The notes under the pieces were generated by a model. The model saw only the letters and a list, made by a program, of their open reading frames with translations. It was not told where the DNA came from and did no database searches. A DNA stretch of 64,000 bases, from assembly GCA_052387675.1 (NCBI GenBank), contig JBQTIY010000001.1, positions 160,227 through 224,226 on the forward strand, written 5' to 3'. This DNA is from Planctomycetota bacterium (GTDB lineage Bacteria > Planctomycetota > B15-G4). The position numbers and the translations under genes are program-made. Shown one piece after another: positions 23,286-56,889 of this stretch (within the stretch, counting starts at the first letter, position 1; each line of letters begins with the position of its first letter).

Positions 23286-23315
23286 TTGACGCTTTGTGCA
23301 CTGCGCACCTAGAAT
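23286..23315 (+). promoter_or_regulatory. Sigma70-like promoter (TTGACG - 18 nt - TAGAAT) for the HPS-RraA/thiS operon
   Basis: -35 TTGACG at 23286-23291, -10 TAGAAT at 23310-23315. A GAAA-tetraloop hairpin (CGCGGC-GAAA-GCCGCG, about 23336-23351) sits in the predicted leader before the ATG at 23376. Confidence 0.4.
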
Positions 23316-23375: not shown

Positions 23376-24821
23376 ATGCCTGTCCCCACTGTCGGCGCTG
23401 GATCGACACCCAAGCCCGGCAACTCGGGCGCAGCCTCCCCCGGCCACGCAGCCGCGCCCGCAGCCGGTCCCGCGGCAGGCGGTCGCCCGCGGCTGCAAGT
23501 CGCGCTCGACTTTCTCATTCTCAGCCGCGCACTGAAGGCGGCCGAGGAGGCCGTGGCCGGCGGCGCCGACATCCTGGAAGTCGGCACCCCGCTGCTGAAG
23601 AGCGCCGGCCTCGACGCGGTGCGCGCGCTGCGCGAACGCTTCCCCAACATCCCCGTGGTGGCCGACACCAAGACCATGGATGCGGGCCGCGCCGAGATGG
23701 AGATGGCCGCCAAAGCCGGCGCTAGCTTCGCGACGGTGCTGGGCGTTTCTTCGCCCGGCACGATCCGCGAGTGCGTCGAGGTGGGCAAAAACTACGGCAT
23801 CACCGTGGTCGTGGACCTGGTCGGCACGGCCGATCCGGTGGCCACGGCCCGCTTGGCCGCTGAACTGGGCGCCGGAGCGGTGGGCGTGCACTGCGGCATC
23901 GACCAGCAGATGGCGGGGCAGGATCCCTGGACCACCCTGCGCGCTGTGCGCGAGGCGGTCTCGATCACGGTGGCGGTGGCCGGCGGCATCACGGCCGAGT
24001 CGGCCGGCCGCGCGGTGGCCGCCGGCGCCGACATCGTCATCGTGGGCGGCGCCATCACCAAGGCGGCCGATGCCGCGGCAGCCACGCGGGCCATTCGGGC
24101 AGCGCTTGAAGGCGGACGCGGCGCGGCGGGCGCGGCCTCAGCCGGCGCGGGCGGCGCCCCAGGCGCGGCGGGCGCCGCTGGCGCGGGCGCCTTTCGTCGC
24201 TACGGCCCGGCGCAGCTCCGCGAAGCCTTCGCGCAGGTCTCCACCTCCAATCTCTCCGACGCCATGCATCGCGGCGGCGCACTCGAAGGCCTGCAGTCCC
24301 TCGTGCTCGGCAAGCACATGGTCGGGCGCGTGCTCACCGTGCGCACTTACCCCGGCGATTGGGCCAAGCCGGTGGAGGCCATTGATCAGGCGCAGCCGGG
24401 CGATGTGCTGGTCATCGACGCGGGCGGCCGCGGCCCGGCCGTCTGGGGTGAACTTGCCACCGAGAGCTGCCTGCAGCGCAAGCTTGCGGGCGTGGTCATC
24501 GACGGCGCCATCCGCGATGTGGATGCCATCCGCGCGCTCGGCTTCCCCGCCTTCGCGCGGCTGGCCTGTCCCAATGCCTGGGAGCCCAAGGGCTTTGGCG
24601 AAATCGGCGCGCCGGTGACGGTGGGCGGCGTGCGCGTCGCGACCGGCGACTGGATCGTGGGCGACGACAGCGGCCTCGTGCACGTGCCCGCCGAGCGCGC
24701 CGTGGAGATCGCCAACCGCGCTCTCGACGTGCTGGAGATGGAGAATCGCGTGCGCGGCGAGATTCGCGCCGGCCGCACGCTGGCCTCGATCATGGAGCTG
24801 TACCGGTGGGAGAAGTCCTGA
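23376..24821 (+). CDS. Bifunctional fusion: 3-hexulose-6-phosphate synthase (HxlA/KGPDC, OMP-decarboxylase fold) + RraA-like (class II aldolase/decarboxylase, RraA/MenG family) domain
   Basis: N-domain LQVALDFL..ADILEVGTPLLK..VVADTKTMDAG..VLGVSSPGTIRECVEVGKNYGITVVVDLVG..VIVGGAITKAADAAAATRAI is nearly colinear with B. subtilis HxlA. After a G/A-rich linker, the C-domain AMHRGGALEGL..QPGDVLVIDAGG..AVWGELATESCLQRKLAGVVIDGAIRDVDAIRALGFPAFAR is an RraA-like fold. The N-terminal 40 aa are P/A-rich, so the true start may be later. Confidence 0.8.
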   Translation: MPVPTVGAGSTPKPGNSGAASPGHAAAPAAGPAAGGRPRLQVALDFLILSRALKAAEEAVAGGADILEVGTPLLKSAGLDAVRALRERFPNIPVVADTKTMDAGRAEMEMAAKAGASFATVLGVSSPGTIRECVEVGKNYGITVVVDLVGTADPVATARLAAELGAGAVGVHCGIDQQMAGQDPWTTLRAVREAVSITVAVAGGITAESAGRAVAAGADIVIVGGAITKAADAAAATRAIRAALEGGRGAAGAASAGAGGAPGAAGAAGAGAFRRYGPAQLREAFAQVSTSNLSDAMHRGGALEGLQSLVLGKHMVGRVLTVRTYPGDWAKPVEAIDQAQPGDVLVIDAGGRGPAVWGELATESCLQRKLAGVVIDGAIRDVDAIRALGFPAFARLACPNAWEPKGFGEIGAPVTVGGVRVATGDWIVGDDSGLVHVPAERAVEIANRALDVLEMENRVRGEIRAGRTLASIMELYRWEKS

Positions 24822-25072
24822 GCGGCCAGCCGGTGCGCGCTGACGGCTCACGCGAGGGCGCGACCACGCTGCTCCGCGTCACGCTGAACGGCGAGCCGCG
24901 CGAGCTGCCCGCCGGCACGACCGTGGCCGAGTTACTCGCCCTGCTCGGCGCCACGGGCAAGCCCTGCGCCGTGGAAATCGACCGCGTCATCGTGCCGCGC
25001 AGCGCGCACGCCACGCGCTCCATCACCGCGGGCAACGCCATCGAAGTCGTGAGCTTCGTCGGCGGTGGCTGA
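24806..25072 (+). CDS. thiS: Sulfur carrier protein ThiS
   Basis: The C-terminal 66 aa LRVTLNGEPRELPAGTTVAELLALLG...AIEVVSFVGGG have the ubiquitin-like ThiS length and the terminal GG. The annotated ATG gives an N-terminal extension; the true start may be a non-ATG codon further in. Confidence 0.8.
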   Translation: MGEVLSGQPVRADGSREGATTLLRVTLNGEPRELPAGTTVAELLALLGATGKPCAVEIDRVIVPRSAHATRSITAGNAIEVVSFVGGG

Positions 25073-25129: not shown

Positions 25130-25717
25130 TTAGGCCTTGCGCGTCGCTTGCCGCCAGCGTTCGAGCAGCGGCAACTCCACAGCCTCCGCGAACTCCCGCA
25201 GTGTTCGCTCGATGAAGGCGAGGTCCAGCTTTGGCTGTCGAGCCACCACCGAGCGCACGTCTTCGAGGTCGCGCTCTCGTCCGGCGATGACCTTGTGGAT
25301 CACCAGATCCTCCGGCGAAACGAAGCGCACGGCCACGGCCCCCATGTGCACGGTCCGCGCCCGCCGCAGAGCCTGCTGCTCGTAGTCCGAGTCGGAGAAG
25401 ACGAGGTCCACGCGCATGCCGCTCGCGGCGTCCGAGCAAGGCAGGACCATGGTCTCGCGCGCAAAGGTTTGGGGATCGACAAGCGCTTGCAGCCCCGCGG
25501 CCTGGGCTGCTGCAACGACCTCGGCCAAACGGTCGAGCGATGCGCCGAGCGTGATGTCGATGTCCCTCGTCAGGCGTGGCTCGCCGTGCACGAGTACAGC
25601 CTGCCCGCCGATCACCATGTAGGGCACGCGCGCCGCGTCCAGCGCGCTGGCGATCCGGCCCAGGATCTCAGAGATCACGGAAGACTCGCGCCCGCCGAAT
25701 GTCCTCCTCGATGCCAT
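25130..25717 (-). CDS. Short AbiEii-like nucleotidyltransferase-fold protein (paralog of 14732-15358)
   Basis: 195 aa. MVIGGQAVLVHGEPRLTRDIDITL (GGxAL + RxTxDIDI) and C-terminal IHKVIAGRERDLEDV (K..A..R.RD..D, AbiEii motif III-like). An alternative GTG start at 25678 lies just after the upstream small gene's stop. Confidence 0.65.
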   Translation of the reverse strand: MASRRTFGGRESSVISEILGRIASALDAARVPYMVIGGQAVLVHGEPRLTRDIDITLGASLDRLAEVVAAAQAAGLQALVDPQTFARETMVLPCSDAASGMRVDLVFSDSDYEQQALRRARTVHMGAVAVRFVSPEDLVIHKVIAGRERDLEDVRSVVARQPKLDLAFIERTLREFAEAVELPLLERWRQATRKA

Positions 25718-25862
25718 CGAGCGGATCCTTCAGTGGGATGACGCCGAGTTGCCGGGCCTCCTCGAGCAGCAGTTCGTGGATGCGGAAGTTCTCTTCGACA
25801 TCCAGGGGCCGCGCGAGTTGGTCACGCTCGAAGTCGTCGAGGAGCTTGCAGCGGCGAATCAT
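25668..25862 (-). CDS. Small alpha-helical protein (64 aa), putative partner of the downstream NTase
   Basis: MIRRCKLLDDFERDQLARPLDVEENFRIHELLLEEARQLG...; it overlaps or abuts the NTase start (GTGATCTCTGA arrangement). Weakly similar to the protein at 14512-14742. Confidence 0.45.
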   Translation of the reverse strand: MIRRCKLLDDFERDQLARPLDVEENFRIHELLLEEARQLGVIPLKDPLDGIEEDIRRARVFRDL

Positions 25863-26495: not shown

Positions 26496-27281
26496 ATGAT
26501 TCCCGGCGACTCTCCGCTCGTCATCGGCGCGCACAGCTTCCGGTCGCGGCTCTTCGTGGGCACCGGCAAGTACCGCAGCTTGGAGCAGATGCGGGCCGCC
26601 GTGGACGCCTCCGGCACCGAATGCGTCACCGTGGCGGTGCGCCGGATCGGCACGCCCGGCAGTGAATCGCTCTTGGAACACCTGGATCTGACGCGCATCA
26701 CACTGCTGCCCAACACCGCCGGCTGCTACAGCGCCGACGATGCGCTGCGCACGGCGCGCCTCGCGCGCGAAGCCCTCGGCTCCGACTTGGTGAAGCTCGA
26801 AGTTCTGGCCGATCCGCAGACGCTCTTGCCTGAACCCATCGAGACGCTCGCCGCGGCGAAGCAGCTCGTGCGCGAGGGCTTCACCGTGCTGGCCTACACC
26901 ACCGACGACCCGATCATCGCGCGGCGCCTCGAAGAGGCCGGCTGCGCGGCCGTCATGCCGCTCGGCGCCCCCATCGGCAGCGGCCTGGGGATCCTCAATC
27001 CGCGCAACATCGCGGCGATCAAGGCCGCGGCCCGCGTGCCGATCATCGTCGACGCGGGCGTGGGCACGGCCAGCGATGTCTCGGTGGCCTTCGAACTGGG
27101 CGTGGACGGCGTGCTGCTCAACACCGGCATTGCGCTGGCCGACGACCCGGTGCTCATGGCGCGCGCGATGCAGCATGCCTGGCTGGCCGGACGCGCGGCG
27201 TGGCTGGCCGGCCGCATGCCGCGTCGCGCGCAGGCCGCGCCGAGTTCGCCCACGCAGGGCACGATTGCGGCGAGTGCGTGA
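26496..27281 (+). CDS. thiG: Thiazole synthase
   Basis: [26 protein letters not shown]...VKLEVLAD...[27 protein letters not shown], a full-length ThiG TIM-barrel match. Confidence 0.95.
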
Positions 27282-28333
27282 CGGCGCTGAAGCGGGAGAC
27301 TCTGGCCGGCAACACGGCCGCACGTTCGCTCGGTAAGCTGAGTTTCACCGCGCTCGAAACACTCTGCCGCGAATCAGCGGCGGCCTTTCTGCCCGATGCG
27401 GAGTCGGCCTGCGATCCGCGCGGACCGCTGCCGATCGCTTACTCGGAGAACCGGCGCAAGCGCCTGGGGATTCCGGGCTGCGTGGTGTGCGAGAGCCGCA
27501 CCTGCGCGGCCGTGGACTGGCATGCGCTGCCCGGCGAGGATCTCGCCTGGCTCACGCCGAATCTCTACCCCATCGTCGCGCCGCGTGTGGGCAGCGACGC
27601 GATGGGCGCCTCGGCCAGCGCAAGTGGCGGCGCGCACGGCGTGCATGGCATTCATTTGGTGCATTGGAGTTCCCTGCGGCACGACGGCGGCCTCATCGGC
27701 GCCGAGCCAGCCACGGCCGCGGCCCTCTTCGCGCAGCTTGCGCGCGCCGGCGAGTGGCTGCTGCACCACGCCGACGCCCAGTACCCCGAGAGCGGCGAGG
27801 GCCATCGCGGGCACGTCGGCCTGGTGAAAAACCGCGGCCGCACCGTGGGTGGTTCCGTGGAACACGATCACCAGCAGCTCATGCTTTCGAGCGTGCCCTT
27901 CGCCGAGCCGGCCGCCACACGCGACCTGGCCGCGGCGCTGCACGCGGCACCCGCCGCGCTGCGCGTGGACGACATCAACGGCCTGGCCACTACGCTTGTG
28001 CCGCCCTTCATGCGCCGCCCGCTGCACGCCTTCATCGTGCCGCGCCGATCGGTCACGCCGGCCGGCTGGCTGCACCATCTCGATGAGAAGGTGCGCGATG
28101 CCGTGGCCTTCGCCGTGGCGCGGCTCTGCCAAGCCACCTCCACGCTCATGGCGAACGAGGGCCGCGAGCCCGCCTGGAATCTCATCTGTCACGAAGGCCT
28201 CGGCTGCGAGCCGATCTTCGAGATGCGTCCTTTCACGCAGCCGCTCGGCGGCTACGAACATCTCGGGCTCTATCTCTGCGAGGAGCGGCCGGCCACGAGC
28301 GCCGCGCGCCTGCGCGCGGCGCTGCCCCGCTAA
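27278..28333 (+). CDS. GalT-like HIT-superfamily nucleotidyltransferase (HxHxQ motif), translationally coupled to thiG
   Basis: The GTG start overlaps the thiG TGA (GTGA at 27278-27281). EHDHQQL is an H-x-H-x-Q catalytic motif, and the upstream cysteine clusters (CGEC...CVVCESRTC) resemble the GalT zinc site. The ORF-track ATG at 27200 would overlap thiG by 80 nt. Confidence 0.65.
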
Positions 28334-52594: not shown

Positions 52595-52598
<4 letters not shown>

Positions 52599-53119
52599 GC
52601 GCGGCTGGGCGGACCGTGCGCGCCCTCGTCGCACTGGGCGGCAATCTCGAGCCGCGCCGACAGCATCTGCTCGACGCGCAGGCCGAACTCGCCGCACTGC
52701 CCGAGACGCGCCTGCTGGCCTGTTCGGCCCTGCACGAGACAGCCCCGGTGGAGTGCGCCGCCGGCGATCCGGCCTTCCTGAATGGCGCCTGCCTGCTCGA
52801 GACCAGCCTGCCGCCGCGCGCCCTGCTCGCGGCGCTGCAGGAGATCGAGCGCCGCCACGGTCGAGTGCGCGGAGCCGGCGCGCCGCGGCACGCGCCGCGC
52901 AGCCTCGATCTGGATCTCATCCTGCACGGCGACACGATCCTGGACGAAGCGGGGCTGAATCTGCCGCATCCGCGCGCGCATGAACGGCGCTTCGTGCTCC
53001 AACCTGCAGCCGAGATCGCACCCGAACTGGTCCATCCCGTGCTGGGCCGCAGCTTGGCTCGCCTGCTGGCCGAGTGCCCGCCGCCCGCGCCGGAATCCAG
53101 CCGCGCATGCTCACACTAA
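52595..53119 (+). CDS. folK: 2-amino-4-hydroxy-6-hydroxymethyldihydropteridine diphosphokinase (HPPK)
   Basis: VALGGNLEP..., PRSLDLDLILHGD, LPHPRAHERRFVL are HPPK signature segments. 4-nt overlap with pssA. Confidence 0.9.
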
Positions 53120-53979
53120 GCGAACTCGCCGCCGCGAAGGCGGCCTGCCGTGCCGCCGGCACGCGCGGCAGCGTGGGCTTTCTGCCGACCATGGGCGCGC
53201 TGCACGAGGGGCACCTTGAGCTGGCGCGACGCGCGCGACGCGAGTGCCAGACCGTCGTGGTTTCCATCTTCGTGAACCCGCTGCAGTTCGACGACCCGGC
53301 CGACTTGGCGCGCTATCCGCGGCAGGAGGCGCAGGACGCCGCGCTGCTGGCGGGTGCCGGGGTGGACTTGCTGCTCATGCTGCGACGCGAAGAGATGTAT
53401 CCGCCCGAGTTCGCCACGCGCCTCAGCCAGACGCCGGCGCTCACCGATGTGCTGGAGGGCGCTGCGCGGCCCGGCCATTTTCAGGGCGTACTCACCGTCG
53501 TGGCCAAGCTCTTCGGCATTGTCGGTCCCTGCCGGGCCTACTTCGGCCGCAAAGATTTCCAGCAAACCGTCGTGCTGCGCCGCATGGCGCTCGACCTTGA
53601 GCTGCCGGTGGAGTTAGTGGTTTGCGACACGGTGCGCGAGCCCGACGGCCTCGCGCGCTCCAGCCGCAATGTTTTCCTCAGTGCCGAGGAGCGCCGCCGC
53701 GCAGCGGCCCTGCCGCGAGCGCTGCGCGTCGTGCAGCAGCGCTTCGCCGCCGGAGAGCGCAGCGGCCCGGCACTCGAGCGCGGGCTGCGCGCAGACCTCG
53801 AGCGCGACCTGGGCGTCTCGCCGGACTATGCAGCCGTCGTGCACCCCACGGATCTGTCGCGACGCGAACAGGCGCAGCCGGGCGATGCCGTGCTCGTAGC
53901 GGCCCGCGTGGGTCGCGTGCGCCTGATCGACAACCATCTCCTCGGTGCTACAATCGGCCCCTTTGCCGAAGGCCCCTGA
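53107..53979 (+). CDS. panC: Pantoate--beta-alanine ligase
   Basis: MLTLSELAAAKAA..GFLPTMGALHEGHLELARRA...VVSIFVNPLQFDDPADLARYPR...GHFQGVLTVVAKLFGIV is colinear with E. coli PanC. Confidence 0.93.
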   Translation: MLTLSELAAAKAACRAAGTRGSVGFLPTMGALHEGHLELARRARRECQTVVVSIFVNPLQFDDPADLARYPRQEAQDAALLAGAGVDLLLMLRREEMYPPEFATRLSQTPALTDVLEGAARPGHFQGVLTVVAKLFGIVGPCRAYFGRKDFQQTVVLRRMALDLELPVELVVCDTVREPDGLARSSRNVFLSAEERRRAAALPRALRVVQQRFAAGERSGPALERGLRADLERDLGVSPDYAAVVHPTDLSRREQAQPGDAVLVAARVGRVRLIDNHLLGATIGPFAEGP

Positions 53980-54009
53980 GTTGGCCTGTCGTTTCAGCCC
54001 TCCGGAGTT

Positions 54010-54366
54010 TTGCCCATGCAGCGCTTCCTGATGAAGTCCAAGCTTCACGGCGGCTCCGTCACGCAGTGCAACATCCACTACATGGGCAGCCTCACGGTGG
54101 ACAGAAACCTCATGGAGCTGGCCGACCTGCTGCCCCATGAAAAGGTGCAGGTCGTGAACGTGAACACGGGCGCCCGCTTCGAGACCTACGTCATCGAGGG
54201 CGAGGCCGGCAGCGGCGTCATCGGCGTGAATGGCGGCGCAGCGCGGCTGTGCACCGAGGGCGACATCGTGCTGGTCATCTCGTACTGCCAGATGGAAGAC
54301 GAAGAGGCGCGCGGCTTCGAGCCCACGGTCATCCTTCTGGATCGGAAGAACCAGCCGCAGCAGTGA
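54010..54366 (+). CDS. panD: Aspartate 1-decarboxylase proenzyme
   Basis: [29 protein letters not shown] (the Gly-Ser self-cleavage site) ...[18 protein letters not shown]. Confidence 0.93.
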
Positions 54367-55355
54367 ACGCCTCCGGCCAGAGTGTGCGCCTGGCGGCCCC
54401 GGCCAAGATCAACCTGTTCCTCGAGGTGCTGGGGCGGCGGGCCGACGGCTTCCACGAGCTGCGCACTGTGCTGCAGACCATCGACCTATGCGATGAGCTG
54501 AGCATCACGCTGCGGCCGCGCCGCCGCGAGGCGCTGCCCGGCGAGCCGGACATTGCCCTGGAGTTGCTGGGTCTTTCGGCCGGCGCCGGGACCAATGCTG
54601 AAACGGCGGCGGAAACGGGCACCGCCGTGCCCAGCGACGGGCGGAATCTCGCAGTGCGCGCGGCGCAGCTCCTGCTGGCAGCCTGCGGAGCGGCCGGCGA
54701 AGTCGGCGTGCAGTTGCATCTGACCAAGCGCATCCCTGCCGGCGGCGGCCTGGGCGGCGGATCCTCCGATGCGGCCGCGGTGCTCTTGGGCTTGCACGCC
54801 TTGCTCGGTGAGCCCCTCGGCGCGCTGGGGCCCGACAGCGGGGGCCGGCATGACCCGAGCACCTCCCAACTCCATGCCTTGGCTGCTCAACTCGGCAGCG
54901 ATGTTCCTTTTTTCCTGACCGGAGGCACGGCCCTTTGCACCGGTCGCGGCGAACGCGTGCAACCGCTCGACTCGGTGCCGGCCGGAGAGTTCACGCTCGT
55001 CATGCTGCCCTTCGGCGTCGCGACGGCGGCCGTGTACGCCGCTTTGGCCGCGGACCTGGCGCAGCGCGCGCCGGCGACCGCCGATCCAGCCGCACAAGGC
55101 GCTGCCGAAGCCGCCTTGGCTGCGCGCTTCCGCCGCGCCCGGCCCGAGCAACTGTCCAGCCTGTTCCGCAATGACCTGGAGTCGGCCGCACGCCGCGTTG
55201 AGCCCAGACTCAACGCGTGGCTCAGTCGCGCGGGCCTGCATCTCTCCGGCAGCGGCAGTACGGTTTTCGGCTTCGGCGCCCCGATGGAAGGCGAGTTGCC
55301 CTCCGGCGGGCGTGTCGTCGCCGCCAGGACATTCTCGAGCGGGCGGAATTCCTGA
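54363..55355 (+). CDS. ispE: 4-diphosphocytidyl-2-C-methyl-D-erythritol kinase
   Basis: The GTG start overlaps the panD TGA (GTGA at 54363-54366). [24 protein letters not shown] and GHMP-kinase motif [18 protein letters not shown]. Confidence 0.9.
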
Positions 55356-55424
55356 CGGCCGGGTCAGGGTCGTGGATATCCTGTTGCGCCAACGAGCGGC
55401 TGTGCTGGGTGCGGGAGGCGCGCG

Positions 55425-55949
55425 TTGGACATCACTGAAATCCGCGTGAAGTTGGTTGATCAGTCGCAAGAGCGGCTGCGGGCCTTCTGCACGGTCACGA
55501 TGAATCGCGAGTTCGTCATTCGCGATGTCAAGGTCATCGAGGGGCCCCGCGGACCCTTCGTGGCCATGCCGAGCCGCAAGGTCATGGATCGCTGCCCGAA
55601 CTGCGGCGGCAAGAACCATCTGCGCGCCAATCACTGCAATGATTGCGGACGGGGCCTTCCCGCGGACCGCGCGCCGCGCGACGATCGTGGGCGTGCCCGC
55701 CTCCACGTCGACGTCGCCCATCCCATCAATCAGGACTGCCGCTCCTTCATGGAGCAGCGCATTCTCGGCGCCTACCACGCCGAGCTCGTGCGCTCGCAGC
55801 AGCCCGGCTACGTGGCGCCCGACCTCGCCGACGACGACGATTACATCTTCGATCACGACGCCTTCCTGCCCCCCCCACCTGTCGTCGTCGACCGCGGACC
55901 GATGCGCGCCCGCCCCGAGCAGCAGGACGGCCGGACCTTCCAGGCCTAA
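55425..55949 (+). CDS. spoVG: SpoVG family protein with a roughly 45-aa zinc-ribbon insertion and an acidic/Pro-rich C-terminal extension
   Basis: (TTG start) MDITEIRVKLVDQSQERLRAFCTVTMNREFVIRDVKVIEGPRGPFVAMPSRK ... DVAHPINQDCRSFMEQRILGAYH is colinear with B. subtilis SpoVG, except that the TPDGEFR loop is replaced by VMDRCPNCGGKNHLRANHCNDCGRGLPADRAPRDDRGRARLHV (CxxC-x10-CxxC). Confidence 0.85.
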   Translation: MDITEIRVKLVDQSQERLRAFCTVTMNREFVIRDVKVIEGPRGPFVAMPSRKVMDRCPNCGGKNHLRANHCNDCGRGLPADRAPRDDRGRARLHVDVAHPINQDCRSFMEQRILGAYHAELVRSQQPGYVAPDLADDDDYIFDHDAFLPPPPVVVDRGPMRARPEQQDGRTFQA

Positions 55950-55959
55950 GGCTGGCCCG

Positions 55960-56889
55960 GTGAGCGCGTCCGTGCCGCCCGCCGCCTCGGCTTCACCGTC
56001 GGTCGAACGAGAGCTCGTCATTGCTGGCGCTGGCGCAGCCGGGGCAGCCATCGCGCGCGCAGCTCGCCTGGCAGGCTGGTCGCTCGGCGCCGTGGCCTGC
56101 CGCAGCGTGGAGCGCGCCCAGGCGCGTTGTGCGCGCATCGGCGCCGGCCGGCCCACGAGCCTCGCCGCGCTCGGCGATCCGGTCGCCCACGTGCCAGCGC
56201 GGCCGGTGCTCCTGCTCGTGGCCGTGCCTGATCGGCACATCGCGGAGCAGGCCGAGGCGCTCGCGCGCCAAGCGTGGCCGGCGCACTCCTGCGCCCTGCA
56301 CCTCTCGGGCGCGGTGGAGATCACAGCGCTCGCACCTCTACGCGCGGCCGGACTGGCCCTTGGCGGGATGCACCCGCTCAAGAGCTTCGTCGATCTGGAA
56401 CGGGACGCGGCCAGCCTCGCCGGCACAGTCTGGGCGCTCGAAGGCGATGCCGCAGCGCTGCAGGCGGCCGAGCACTTCACCACGTCACTGGGCGGCAAGT
56501 CCTTTCGGCTTGCTCCGGGCAGCCGCCCGGCTTGGCACGCCGCGGCCACGCACGCCTGCAATCACTTCGTGGCGCTTGTCGATCAGGCCCTCGACCTCAT
56601 TGCCGCCGCAGGACTGTCACGCGACGAGGGCCGCCGGGCTCTGCTCCCGCTGCTGGCGAGCACGCTCGACAATCTGCGCGCCCACCCACCGGGCACTGCA
56701 CTCACCGGACCGGTCGTGCGTGGTGACGAGGCCGCCGTGCGGCGCCACTTGCAGGCGCTCGAGGGCTTGCCGGCAGACGTCGCCGCGGCCTACCGGGCCT
56801 TGGCCAGCCGAGCGGTGCACCTGGCGCAGAGCCAGCGCGGGCTGCCGGCCGGTACCGCGGCCAGCATCCTCAAGGATTTGCGCTCATGA
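55960..56889 (+). CDS. Rossmann-like + DUF2520 domain protein (KPR/ProC-like oxidoreductase fold)
   Basis: The GTG start follows the spoVG stop. LVIAGAGAAGAAIARAARLAG is a dinucleotide-binding motif; the C-terminal TGPVVRGDEAAVRRHLQAL is the TGP..RGD DUF2520 signature. Confidence 0.75.
   Translation: MSASVPPAASASPSVERELVIAGAGAAGAAIARAARLAGWSLGAVACRSVERAQARCARIGAGRPTSLAALGDPVAHVPARPVLLLVAVPDRHIAEQAEALARQAWPAHSCALHLSGAVEITALAPLRAAGLALGGMHPLKSFVDLERDAASLAGTVWALEGDAAALQAAEHFTTSLGGKSFRLAPGSRPAWHAAATHACNHFVALVDQALDLIAAAGLSRDEGRRALLPLLASTLDNLRAHPPGTALTGPVVRGDEAAVRRHLQALEGLPADVAAAYRALASRAVHLAQSQRGLPAGTAASILKDLRS

What the first reader, a model, noticed from the sequence alone, without database searches (positions are those of the whole stretch)
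23376..24821. HPS (3-hexulose-6-phosphate synthase)-RraA-like fusion enzyme heading the thiS locus
The N-terminal roughly 210 aa are near-colinear with HxlA (a ribulose-monophosphate-pathway aldolase). A G/A-rich linker joins them to a complete RraA/HMG-CHA-aldolase-like domain (a divalent-metal class II aldolase/decarboxylase fold). I am not aware of this domain combination being characterised. Both halves are C-C lyases acting on phosphosugars/2-oxoacids, so the protein could run a two-step aldol/retro-aldol or decarboxylation route. Its stop overlaps thiS and it sits under a good sigma70-like promoter (TTGACG-18-TAGAAT, 23286-23315). That position hints at a role in supplying a thiazole or other cofactor precursor rather than in formaldehyde fixation.
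Basis: partly seen in the sequence, partly recalled or inferred. Interest (0 to 1): 0.6.

Follow-up and report, generated by a model that had tools for sequence, protein, structure and literature searches.

The report
Hexulose-phosphate synthase fused to RraA-like aldolase
This is a real, intact gene for a two-domain enzyme that is common in bacteria and archaea and already named, and gene neighbourhoods suggest its unexplained second half uses formaldehyde to make the vitamin B5 precursor ketopantoate, not a thiamine precursor.

Summary
Window 23376..24821(+) is one intact 481-aa ORF. [quoted passage not shown] Catalytic residues are conserved in both halves.

The fusion is not rare or unnamed. 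It matches NCBIfam NF005442 over its full length. It occurs in at least 595 species genomes across many bacterial and archaeal phyla. A Methanospirillum hungatei protein of the same architecture ("HPS-MenG") showed weak HPS activity in 2017; its second domain was left unexplained.

The thiS/thiG linkage is real but confined to one Planctomycetota clade (8 of 165 loci within about 4 kb). No TPP riboswitch was found. The thiazole-precursor idea is therefore not supported.

Elsewhere the gene sits next to 6-phospho-3-hexuloisomerase (25 loci), C1/folate genes, and pantoate/CoA genes (32 loci). In several archaeal contigs it lies inside complete CoA operons, for example PoK-PPS-ADC-fusion-KPR-PPAT. 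Those operons lack only ketopantoate hydroxymethyltransferase (PanB), and PanB was found in none of the loci.

Best hypothesis, inferred and not shown: the HPS half delivers formaldehyde from hexulose-6-phosphate, and the aldolase half adds it to 2-oxoisovalerate to give ketopantoate.

The parts
23286..23315 (+). sigma70-like promoter consensus match (TTGACG-18-TAGAAT), 61 nt upstream of the ATG, in the divergent nusA/fusion intergenic region
   Evidence: 10 of 12 matches; 1 found against 0.3 expected. Function was not tested.
23376..24821 (+). CDS of the 481-aa HPS-RraA-like fusion protein (NF005442/PRK07028-type)
23376..23483 (+). 36-residue low-complexity N-terminal extension, predicted disordered and poorly conserved
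23484..24098 (+). 3-hexulose-6-phosphate synthase domain (residues 37-241). D45, E68, D97, K99, D102, H172 and D176 are invariant. The HPS-type signature D147/I174/A202 sits at KGPDC positions 112/139/169.
24111..24189 (+). Gly/Ala-rich interdomain linker encoded by an in-frame tandem repeat (periods 9/18/21); disordered; an insertion relative to homologues
24210..24818 (+). Long-form RraA/HMG-CHA-aldolase-like domain (residues 279-480) with a C-terminal helical extension. R380-D381 align to R123-D124 of PDB 3NOJ. E456 aligns to E199'.
24806..25072 (+). thiS (sulfur carrier). The start is GTG 24806 (overlaps the fusion stop) or GTG 24833.
26496..27281 (+). thiG (thiazole synthase), separated from thiS by a minus-strand insertion
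52595..53979 (+). folK (52595-53119) overlapping panC (53074-53979). These are pantothenate genes of the same organism, with no panB beside them.
55525..56889 (+). ORF containing a DUF2520 (PanG-like putative ketopantoate reductase) domain; the true start is uncertain

Best explanation
The gene encodes a bifunctional formaldehyde-relay enzyme of the widespread HPS-RraA-like ('HPS-MenG', NF005442) family.

Shown:
- It is one intact protein.
- The N-terminal half is a catalytically complete, Mg-dependent-type 3-hexulose-6-phosphate synthase (hexulose-6-P <-> ribulose-5-P + formaldehyde).
- The C-terminal half is a long-form RraA-fold domain. It keeps the Arg-Asp metal/2-oxoacid dyad and the trans-subunit Glu of HMG/CHA aldolase, so it looks like an enzyme, not an RNase regulator.
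- The two halves are joined by a flexible linker.

Inferred:
- The second half is a divalent-metal 2-oxoacid aldolase whose electrophile is formaldehyde released by the HPS half. Hexulose-6-P would come from fructose-6-P through PHI.
- Its nucleophile is 3-methyl-2-oxobutanoate. The net reaction would be hexulose-6-P + 2-oxoisovalerate -> ribulose-5-P + 2-dehydropantoate (ketopantoate).
- This is a folate-independent equivalent of PanB. Ketopantoate reductase then feeds pantothenate/CoA synthesis.

In this Planctomycetota genome the gene is probably co-transcribed with thiS. That arrangement is lineage-specific synteny and is not evidence for a thiamine role.
For: Domain and residue evidence:
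- Domain hits and the full-length family match.
- The HPS half is closest to solved HPS structures (TM 0.91 to 3F4W and 3AJX). It carries the HPS-type D/I/A signature at KGPDC positions 112/139/169.
- Catalytic residues of both halves are invariant in 54 homologues.
- R380-D381 and E456 align to R123-D124 and E199' of HMG/CHA aldolase 3NOJ.

Experimental precedent:
- The M. hungatei protein of the same architecture has measurable but low HPS activity (PMC5241800).
- 13C-formate labelling in Kuenenia is consistent with HPS/PHI flux.

Other HPS fusions:
- All other HPS fusions seen pair HPS with a partner that plausibly handles formaldehyde or hexulose-6-P: SIS/PHI three times and aldehyde:ferredoxin oxidoreductase three times. 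Fae-HPS is known from the literature.

Neighbourhood evidence from 165 loci:
- 32 loci have pantoate/CoA genes within about 4 kb, in several different arrangements.
- L089: pantoate kinase-PPS-MfnA-type decarboxylase-FUSION-ketopantoate reductase-PPAT.
- L088 and L091: PoK-PPS-FUSION-KPR-CoaBC.
- L093: PoK-PPS-FUSION-KPR-decarboxylase.
- L058: PPS-FUSION-KPR-CoaBC.
- L082: PoK-PPS-FUSION.
- These annotations were confirmed with Pfam and NCBIfam.
- PanE overlaps the 3' end of the fusion in loci from unrelated phyla (L023, L050, L051, L054, L057, L110, L111).
- Actinomycetota carry PanG-like-PanC-UPF0047-FUSION.
- Some Desulfobacterota carry PanG-like <-> PHI-FUSION (L018, L122, L156).
- PHI is immediately upstream in 25 loci.

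PanB:
- PanB was found in none of the 167 loci or the window, about 1.9 Mb in total. The query was validated against PDB 1M3U.
- The window has folK-panC and a DUF2520 gene but no panB.
Against: - No biochemical test of the C-terminal domain exists.
- The substrate assignment rests on gene neighbourhood only.
- About half the loci (77 of 165) have none of the panel genes nearby.
- The Methanocalculus context is uninformative.
- In the window the gene neighbours thiS/thiG, not pan genes, which lie 30 kb away.
- Whole-genome absence of PanB in carriers could not be tested.
- Poribacteria, one phylum with a fusion-PanE pair (L057), are reported to have PanB homologues (PMC7883664). Strict replacement is therefore not established.
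- Many loci belong to a few lineages, so locus counts overstate the number of independent events.
- AlphaFold2 gives no fixed interdomain geometry (pTM 0.67), so channelling is unproven.
- Associations with C1/folate genes and DUF362 Fe-S genes fit a more general formaldehyde role equally well.
Confidence: 0.45

Rival explanations
1. Ordinary ribulose-monophosphate-pathway enzyme. The HPS half fixes or detoxifies formaldehyde, or runs in reverse to make pentose phosphates. The RraA-like half is accessory: structural, regulatory, or an unrelated oxaloacetate decarboxylase.
For: - PHI is immediately upstream in 25 loci.
- HPS activity was shown for M. hungatei HPS-MenG.
- Kuenenia labelling is consistent with RuMP flux.
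- Neighbours include Wood-Ljungdahl and folate C1 genes: CdhD, AcsE-like, FolD, FTCD_C.
Against: - It does not explain why the aldolase catalytic dyad and Glu are invariant over 54 sequences at 43-78% identity to the window protein.
- It does not explain why the fusion sits inside CoA operons next to ketopantoate reductase.
- The HPS activity of the methanogen enzyme is about 30-fold lower than that of Fae-HPS in the same organism. That argues against a bulk-flux role.
Confidence: 0.28
2. Formaldehyde relay to a different 2-oxoacid. An example is pyruvate + formaldehyde -> 4-hydroxy-2-oxobutanoate, leading to homoserine or 2,4-dihydroxybutanoate. Alternatively it is a general formaldehyde sink onto 2-oxoacids.
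For: - The domain logic is the same as in the best explanation.
- The closest characterised relative, HMG/CHA aldolase (3NOJ), uses the pyruvate enolate (plus family knowledge).
- Adjacent ApbA-family reductases are a broad family and could reduce other 2-oxoacids.
Against: - The adjacent genes are specifically PPS, pantoate kinase-like, PanC, CoaBC and PPAT.
- The reductases reach the TIGR00745 2-dehydropantoate reductase cutoff (296 and 291 bits against 141).
- No homoserine or threonine genes were seen among recurrent neighbours.
Confidence: 0.12
3. One reading: the enzyme supplies a thiazole/thiamine precursor, for example a DXP-like sugar phosphate, to ThiG.
For: - fusion-thiS-thiG synteny is conserved in relatives at 58-69% identity (L001, L004, L008, L012, L040, L061, L069).
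- The genes are tightly packed or overlap.
- UPF0047/YjbQ, whose family is annotated as a 'secondary thiamine-phosphate synthase', neighbours the fusion in 29 other loci.
Against: - The linkage is confined to one Planctomycetota clade: 8 of 165 loci within about 4 kb.
- In L003 and L007 other genes are inserted between the fusion and thiS.
- No TPP riboswitch occurs in the window or in four related loci, even at E <= 1.
- The fusion is equally conserved in lineages with no thiS/thiG nearby, including archaea.
- The YjbQ thiamine activity is, to my knowledge, a weak promiscuous one.
Confidence: 0.04
4. The C-terminal domain is a protein inhibitor of RNase E, as the NCBIfam name 'ribonuclease regulator' implies.
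For: Name only. There is weak similarity to RraA proper: NF006875 scores 65 bits against a cutoff of 136.
Against: - It scores far below the RraA cutoffs.
- It resembles the long-form aldolase-type proteins more closely: 3K4I and 3NOJ and PRK06201.
- It keeps the R-D dyad. E. coli RraA has R-Q at that position (from my recollection of the sequence).
- The family is common in archaea. As far as I know, archaea lack a canonical RNase E degradosome.
Confidence: 0.02

Closest known systems
NCBIfam NF005442 / PRK07028 'bifunctional hexulose-6-phosphate synthase/ribonuclease regulator' (= 'HPS-MenG', Mhun0647 of Methanospirillum hungatei, Kono et al. 2017)
   Same: - Same two-domain architecture, colinear over model positions 3-428 of 430.
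- 43-78% identity to family members across phyla.
- A methanogen (Methanomicrobiales) member is about 50% identical.
   Different: - The window copy scores 540.8 bits, just under the 593 cutoff.
- It carries a 36-aa N-terminal extension and a repeat-expanded linker.
- Its genomic context (thiS/thiG) differs from most members.
3-hexulose-6-phosphate synthase HxlA/RmpA (TIGR03128; PDB 3AJX, 3F4W) and the HPS-PHI and Fae-HPS fusions
   Same: - The N-half has the same fold (TM 0.91) and the same catalytic residues.
- It has the HPS-type D/I/A signature.
- The fusion logic is the same: the partner domain handles an HPS substrate or product.
   Different: The partner domain is an RraA-fold aldolase-like domain instead of PHI or Fae. 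The only measured activity for this architecture is low.
HMG/CHA aldolase / oxaloacetate decarboxylase (LigK/ProA, PDB 3NOJ) and uncharacterised long-form RraA-like proteins (PDB 3K4I; PRK06201)
   Same: - The C-half shares the fold (TM 0.80-0.86).
- It shares the C-terminal helical extension, the R-D dyad and the E199' equivalent.
   Different: - Identity is only 25-32%.
- Scores are far below the LigK equivalog cutoffs: 80 against 304.5 bits, and 92 against 179.
- The substrate is unknown.
- It is fused to HPS.
Ketopantoate hydroxymethyltransferase PanB (EC 2.1.2.11) and the orphan 'ketopantoaldolase' activity (EC 4.1.2.12)
   Same: The proposed overall chemistry is the same: Mg-dependent enolisation of 3-methyl-2-oxobutanoate and addition of a formaldehyde-level C1 unit. 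The operon position is the same, next to KPR, PanC or PoK-PPS.
   Different: There is no sequence or fold relationship to PanB. The C1 donor would be hexulose-6-phosphate or free formaldehyde instead of methylene-tetrahydrofolate. The activity has not been demonstrated.

Membership tests
NF005442/PRK07028 HPS-RraA-like fusion family | Full-length colinear match to the family model at or above the curated cutoff | tested here: inconclusive
   The match covers 37-480 against model positions 3-428 of 430 (E 1.8e-162) but scores 540.8 bits, under the 593 cutoff. The archaeal relative L089 scores 665 bits. The shortfall is attributable to the repeat-expanded linker.
NF005442/PRK07028 HPS-RraA-like fusion family | OMPdecase/HPS domain followed by an RraA-like domain in one polypeptide | tested here: met
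3-hexulose-6-phosphate synthase (TIGR03128) | Score at or above the curated cutoff | tested here: met
   200.2 bits against a cutoff of 200. This is marginal.
3-hexulose-6-phosphate synthase (TIGR03128) | Mg ligand and catalytic residues (Glu, Asp-x-Lys, Asp, His), and the HPS-type rather than KGPDC-type residues at KGPDC positions 112/139/169 | tested here: met
   E68, D97, K99, D102 and H172 are invariant. D147/I174/A202 align to D112/V139/A169 of the HPS-like KGPDC triple mutant 1XBX.
3-hexulose-6-phosphate synthase (TIGR03128) | Catalysis of Ru5P + HCHO <-> hexulose-6-P | not testable with these tools
   Activity was measured only for the M. hungatei protein of the same architecture, at 0.21 U/mg (PMC5241800).
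HMG/CHA aldolase (LigK/ProA) class II-like pyruvate aldolases of the RraA fold | Arg-Asp dyad (R123/D124), the E199' equivalent, and the long C-terminal helical extension | tested here: met
   R380, D381 and E456 are invariant. Helices 439-480 appear in the model.
HMG/CHA aldolase (LigK/ProA) class II-like pyruvate aldolases of the RraA fold | Equivalog-level sequence score | tested here: not met
   TIGR02798 scores 80.1 against 304.5 bits. NF006731 scores 92.2 against 179 bits. The domain is a relative, not a LigK orthologue.
RraA, regulator of RNase E | Score at or above the RraA cutoffs; short form of about 160 aa | tested here: not met
   NF006875 scores 65.3 against 136 bits. TIGR02998 scores 43.8 against 241 bits. 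The domain is the long form with a C-terminal extension.
Ketopantoate-forming enzyme (functional analogue of PanB) | Operon association with ketopantoate reductase and downstream CoA genes where PanB is missing from the operon | tested here: met
   Loci L058, L082, L088, L089, L091, L093, L096, the PanE pairs and the Actinomycetota pan cluster. PanB was found in 0 of 167 loci.
Ketopantoate-forming enzyme (functional analogue of PanB) | Genome-wide anticorrelation with PanB; enzymatic formation of 2-dehydropantoate | not testable with these tools
   Only +/-10 kb flanks were available. A report that Poribacteria have PanB cautions against assuming strict replacement.
Thiamine (thiazole) biosynthesis operon member | Conserved linkage with thi genes across lineages; TPP riboswitch control | tested here: not met
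   The linkage occurs in 8 of 165 loci, from one clade. No TPP riboswitch was found.

The most novel reading that the evidence does not exclude
The HPS-RraA-like family is a previously unrecognised, folate-independent ketopantoate synthase. It uses hexulose-6-phosphate as a formaldehyde carrier and an RraA-fold aldolase to hydroxymethylate 2-oxoisovalerate. It would be a non-homologous substitute for, or supplement to, PanB in many anaerobic bacteria and archaea. It would also give the uncharacterised 'MenG-like' domain its first assigned biochemical function.
Probability: 0.4. Interest if true: 0.8.

Novelty: new member of a known kind. Interest (0 to 1): 0.55.

Why it matters
The gene itself is one more member of a very common, already named family, so the finding as written is not new. 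The family's second domain, however, has no assigned function despite occurring in hundreds of species. Its database name ('ribonuclease regulator') is almost certainly misleading.

The neighbourhood analysis turns this into a directly testable proposal: a new route to ketopantoate that bypasses methylene-tetrahydrofolate. If true, it would:
- add a non-homologous enzyme for the first step of pantothenate/CoA synthesis;
- explain why HPS is retained in organisms that do not need the RuMP pathway for bulk carbon;
- correct automated annotations, including JGI's 'HPS/PHI' label;
- offer a natural formaldehyde-to-2-oxoacid enzyme of interest for synthetic C1 assimilation.

Tried and rejected
- **Sequencing artefact or split genes:** rejected. 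The ORF is single, the exact protein is in NCBI, and thousands of homologues share the architecture.
- **Reversed domain order as extra Rosetta-stone evidence:** the candidates P0174, P0188, P0228 and P0246 turned out to be RraA-RraA tandems, not RraA-HPS.
- **TPP riboswitch or other RNA element upstream:** none found at gathering threshold or at E <= 1. The 5' UTR fold is not unusual (z = -0.65).
- **Shared active-site channel from a monomer model:** the linker is disordered and pTM is 0.67, so there is no fixed interface to analyse.
- **Literature on the fusion:** searches with 'RraA' and 'ribonuclease regulator' found nothing. Only the old 'MenG' name retrieved the Kono 2017 paper. Searches linking hexulose with pantoate, or ketopantoate with formaldehyde aldolases, found no prior proposal.
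- **Methanogen context:** the Methanocalculus locus was uninformative. Look-ups of P0001 and P0275 found no record.
- **Universal conserved neighbour:** none exists. Contexts are lineage-specific.
Full report
**1. Observation**

Window 23376..24821(+) is one uninterrupted 481-aa ORF starting at ATG.
- Pfam finds OMPdecase/HUMPS at residues 38-240 (E 3.9e-34) and RraA-like at 290-435 (E 8.8e-46).
- NCBIfam's best hit is the full-length model NF005442/PRK07028, 'bifunctional hexulose-6-phosphate synthase/ribonuclease regulator'. It aligns residues 37-480 to model positions 3-428 of 430 at 540.8 bits, against a cutoff of 593.
- The HxlA model TIGR03128 is met at 200.2 bits against a cutoff of 200.
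- Residues 1-36 are a low-complexity extension with no alternative canonical start before the conserved LQVALD motif.
- The Gly/Ala linker is an in-frame tandem-repeat expansion at 24111-24189. It is about 18 residues longer than in homologues.
- AlphaFold2 on a 54-sequence alignment gives two confident domains (pLDDT above 90). Residues 1-26 and 254-272 are disordered, and pTM is 0.67. There is no confidently fixed interdomain geometry.
- Foldseek matches the N-half to solved HPS structures (3F4W and 3AJX, TM 0.91). It matches the C-half to long-form RraA-like proteins (3K4I at TM 0.86; HMG/CHA aldolase 3NOJ at TM 0.80).
- The promoter-like site TTGACG-18-TAGAAT at 23286..23315 exists: 10 of 12 matches, one site against 0.3 expected.
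- The stop codon overlaps thiS only if thiS starts at GTG 24806. With GTG 24833 the gap is 11 nt.

**2. Catalytic competence**

The HPS half:
- D45, E68, D97, K99, D102, H172 and D176 are invariant in 54 homologues at 43-78% identity to the window protein.
- I aligned it to the KGPDC triple mutant E112D/R139V/T169A, which was engineered towards HPS (entry titles). The window protein has D147, I174 and A202 at those three positions, which is the HPS-type signature.

The RraA-like half:
- R380-D381 align with R123-D124 of 3NOJ.
- E456 aligns with E199'.
- All three residues are invariant.
- The domain has the C-terminal helical extension of the aldolase-type long form.
- It scores far below the cutoffs for RraA proper: 65 against 136 bits, and 44 against 241 bits.

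From family knowledge (Wang, Mazurkewich and Seah's work on HMG/CHA aldolase and RraA proteins), these residues bind the divalent metal and the 2-oxoacid. The database label 'ribonuclease regulator' is therefore unlikely to describe its function. The family is also abundant in archaea.

**3. How common it is and what is known**

- The exact protein is recorded for an NCBI Planctomycetota MAG. More than 7,800 proteins match at E < 1e-10, and the top 120 all share the architecture.
- Among 1.84 billion cluster representatives, about 20 clusters at 50% identity have this fusion architecture.
They include Planctomycetota, Desulfobacterota, Actinomycetota (Thermoleophilia), Omnitrophota, Brocadiales, Poribacteria, Armatimonadota, Thermoplasmata, Thermococci, Hecatellales and others, at 49-69% identity.
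- A member at about 50% identity belongs to Methanocalculus, of the Methanomicrobiales.
- Searches under 'RraA' found nothing in the literature. The old name 'MenG' led to Kono et al. 2017 (PMC5241800).
- That paper describes M. hungatei Mhun0647, 'HPS-MenG', as this architecture. The recombinant protein showed HPS activity of 0.21 U/mg, against 6.05 U/mg for Fae-HPS. [quoted passage not shown]
- Lawson et al. (bioRxiv 10.1101/835298) invoke the Kuenenia HPS and PHI to explain 13C-formate label entering fructose-6-P.

The fusion is therefore common, named and half characterised.

**4. The thiamine context**

- Relatives at 58-69% identity keep nusA <-> fusion-thiS-thiG-(unknown 343-aa gene).
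- At 61-63% identity other genes are inserted between the fusion and thiS (L003 and L007).
- Over 165 non-redundant loci, ThiS or ThiG lies within about 4 kb in only 8. All 8 are Planctomycetota near the window.
- No TPP riboswitch or any other Rfam family is present upstream, in the window or in four related loci.
- In the window, thiS and thiG are separated by a minus-strand nucleotidyltransferase module that relatives lack.

I conclude that the thiS linkage is lineage-specific synteny. Co-transcription is probable, but the linkage is not evidence for a thiazole-precursor function.

**5. What the neighbourhoods say**

I clustered all ORFs around the fusion in 85 loci, and later in 165 loci. 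I annotated the recurrent clusters with Pfam and NCBIfam. There is no universal neighbour. The recurrent themes are:

(a) 6-phospho-3-hexuloisomerase immediately upstream on the same strand in 25 loci, mainly Desulfobacterota.

(b) UPF0047/YjbQ immediately upstream in 29 loci.

(c) C1/folate and Wood-Ljungdahl genes:
- AcsE-like pterin-binding protein in 11 loci;
- CdhD in 9;
- CooC in 7;
- FolD in 7;
- FTCD_C in 4;
- PTPS in 8.

(d) A DUF362 + 4Fe-4S gene overlapping the 3' end in 15 metagenome loci.

(e) Pantoate/CoA genes within about 4 kb in 32 loci, in several distinct arrangements:
- L089: pantoate kinase-like, PPS (347 bits, cutoff 227), MfnA-type decarboxylase (487 bits, cutoff 299), FUSION (665 bits, cutoff 593), 2-dehydropantoate reductase (296 bits, cutoff 141), PPAT (185 bits, cutoff 104). 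All are contiguous on one strand. To my knowledge, MfnA-type decarboxylases are the archaeal source of beta-alanine.
- L088 and L091: PoK-PPS-FUSION-KPR-CoaBC.
- L093: PoK-PPS-FUSION-KPR-decarboxylase.
- L058 (Hecatellales): PPS-FUSION-KPR-CoaBC.
- L082 (a Thermococci MAG): PoK-PPS-FUSION, with CoaBC divergent.
- A PanE gene overlaps or abuts the 3' end in loci labelled Deltaproteobacteria, Nitrososphaerota, Poribacteria, Zipacnadia and unclassified (L023, L050, L051, L054, L057, L110, L111).
- Thermoleophilia and other Actinomycetota carry PanG-like(DUF2520)-PanC-UPF0047-FUSION.
- Three Desulfobacterota-type loci carry PanG-like <-> PHI-FUSION (L018, L122, L156).

These operons encode every step from ketopantoate to phosphopantetheine. 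The one step without a gene is ketopantoate formation, and the one gene without a role is the fusion.

PanB was detected in none of the 167 loci or the window. The query was E. coli PanB recalled from memory, which I verified as identical to PDB 1M3U.

The window itself carries folK-panC and a DUF2520 gene at 52.6-56.9 kb, with no panB in 64 kb.

A rough chance expectation for a CoA gene among about 8 neighbours is 2-3% of loci. The observed figure is 19%. Lineage non-independence inflates that count. The number of distinct arrangements, at least six, is the better measure.

**6. Mechanistic proposal**

Every other HPS fusion I saw pairs HPS with a domain that plausibly handles one of its ligands:
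- SIS/PHI, three representatives;
- aldehyde:ferredoxin oxidoreductase, three representatives;
- Fae, known from the literature.

An RraA-fold, metal-dependent 2-oxoacid aldolase fits the same logic if its electrophile is formaldehyde. Class II 2-oxoacid aldolases and PanB itself add 2-oxoacids to free formaldehyde. This is established biocatalysis, reviewed for example in PMC7610986 and PMC10127515, which were listed.

The model has three steps:
1. PHI makes hexulose-6-P from fructose-6-P.
2. The HPS half releases formaldehyde and ribulose-5-P.
3. The aldolase half enolises 3-methyl-2-oxobutanoate and captures the formaldehyde, giving 2-dehydropantoate. KPR (PanE or PanG) then reduces it.

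What is shown: the intact fusion, the conserved catalytic residues, HPS activity in a methanogen protein of the same architecture, and the operon associations. What is inferred: the aldolase activity, the identity of the 2-oxoacid, the physiological direction, and any channelling.

The low HPS activity of the methanogen enzyme fits a low-flux cofactor role better than bulk RuMP flux.

**7. Caveats and rivals**

- Half of the loci show none of these neighbours.
- The methanogen context is uninformative.
- Poribacteria are reported to possess PanB (PMC7883664). The enzyme may supplement PanB, not replace it.
- Genome-wide complementarity with PanB could not be tested here.
- A plain RuMP role with an accessory C-domain remains a serious rival, as does formaldehyde capture onto pyruvate (giving 4-hydroxy-2-oxobutanoate).
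- The thiazole-precursor and RNase-regulator readings are unlikely.

**8. Verdict**

The finding is a correct observation of a known, widespread and partly characterised fusion family. Its thiamine interpretation is not supported. The value added here is a specific, testable hypothesis for the family's unexplained half.

Noticed in passing
window 25130..25862 (- strand): A 195-aa nucleotidyltransferase (DUF6036/DUF2204/AbiEii-like) and an overlapping upstream 64-aa ORF sit between thiS and thiG. In relatives (L001, L004) thiS and thiG are directly adjacent. It looks like a toxin-antitoxin-type insertion splitting the thi operon.
   Followed up: partly
window 27311..28333 (+), overlapping the thiG 3' end; also L001 10517-11548 and L004 10407-11441: A conserved gene of about 340 aa lies directly after thiG. 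It has no Pfam or NCBIfam hit. It shows only weak similarity to galactose-1-phosphate uridylyltransferase-like HIT proteins around an H-x-H-x-Q motif (HDHQQ), at PDB E-values of about 0.4. It may be an uncharacterised nucleotidyl transferase linked to ThiS/ThiG.
   Followed up: partly
window 52595..56889 (+): folK overlaps panC. ispE, spoVG and a DUF2520 (PanG-like) gene follow. No panB occurs anywhere in the 64-kb window.
   Followed up: partly
29 loci, e.g. L044 9522-9989, L062 9526-9972: A UPF0047/YjbQ-family gene sits immediately upstream of the fusion on the same strand in Actinomycetota, Omnitrophota and other lineages. It often lies between panC or acsE-like genes and the fusion. It is possibly a third component, and its function is unknown.
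   Followed up: partly
15 metagenome loci, e.g. L131 1578-2582, L109 9260-10264: A DUF362 + 4Fe-4S ferredoxin-domain gene overlaps the fusion's stop by 12 nt in most of these loci. FolD, a YaaH-family channel and a SAM methyltransferase are often nearby. The lineage is unidentified.
   Followed up: partly
Omnitrophota loci L025, L028, L037, L043, L062: The fusion is embedded in a Wood-Ljungdahl/acetyl-CoA synthase cluster. The order is a corrinoid-activator-like protein, CooC, CdhD/AcsD-like, AcsE-like pterin-binding protein, UPF0047, the fusion, and then a 370-aa gene not annotated here.
   Followed up: partly
proteins P0147, P0182, P0199 (representatives): These are aldehyde:ferredoxin oxidoreductase-HPS fusion proteins of 600-992 aa. 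I am not aware of this HPS fusion type being described. It suggests direct coupling of formaldehyde oxidation to HPS.
   Followed up: partly
proteins P0158, P0159, P0162, P0170, P0177, P0210: A divergent sister group, at 26-29% identity in the A1 alignment, keeps the RraA-like half. Its HPS-like half has lost the His and the phosphate-binding Gly motifs. It is probably a non-catalytic HPS-derived domain.
   Followed up: no
proteins P0174, P0188, P0228, P0246: Tandem RraA-RraA two-domain proteins of about 420-450 aa are related to the C-terminal half.
   Followed up: no
JGI source names: Many JGI records name these proteins '3-hexulose-6-phosphate synthase/6-phospho-3-hexuloisomerase', although the second domain is RraA-like, not SIS/PHI. 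This looks like a systematic mis-annotation.
   Followed up: no
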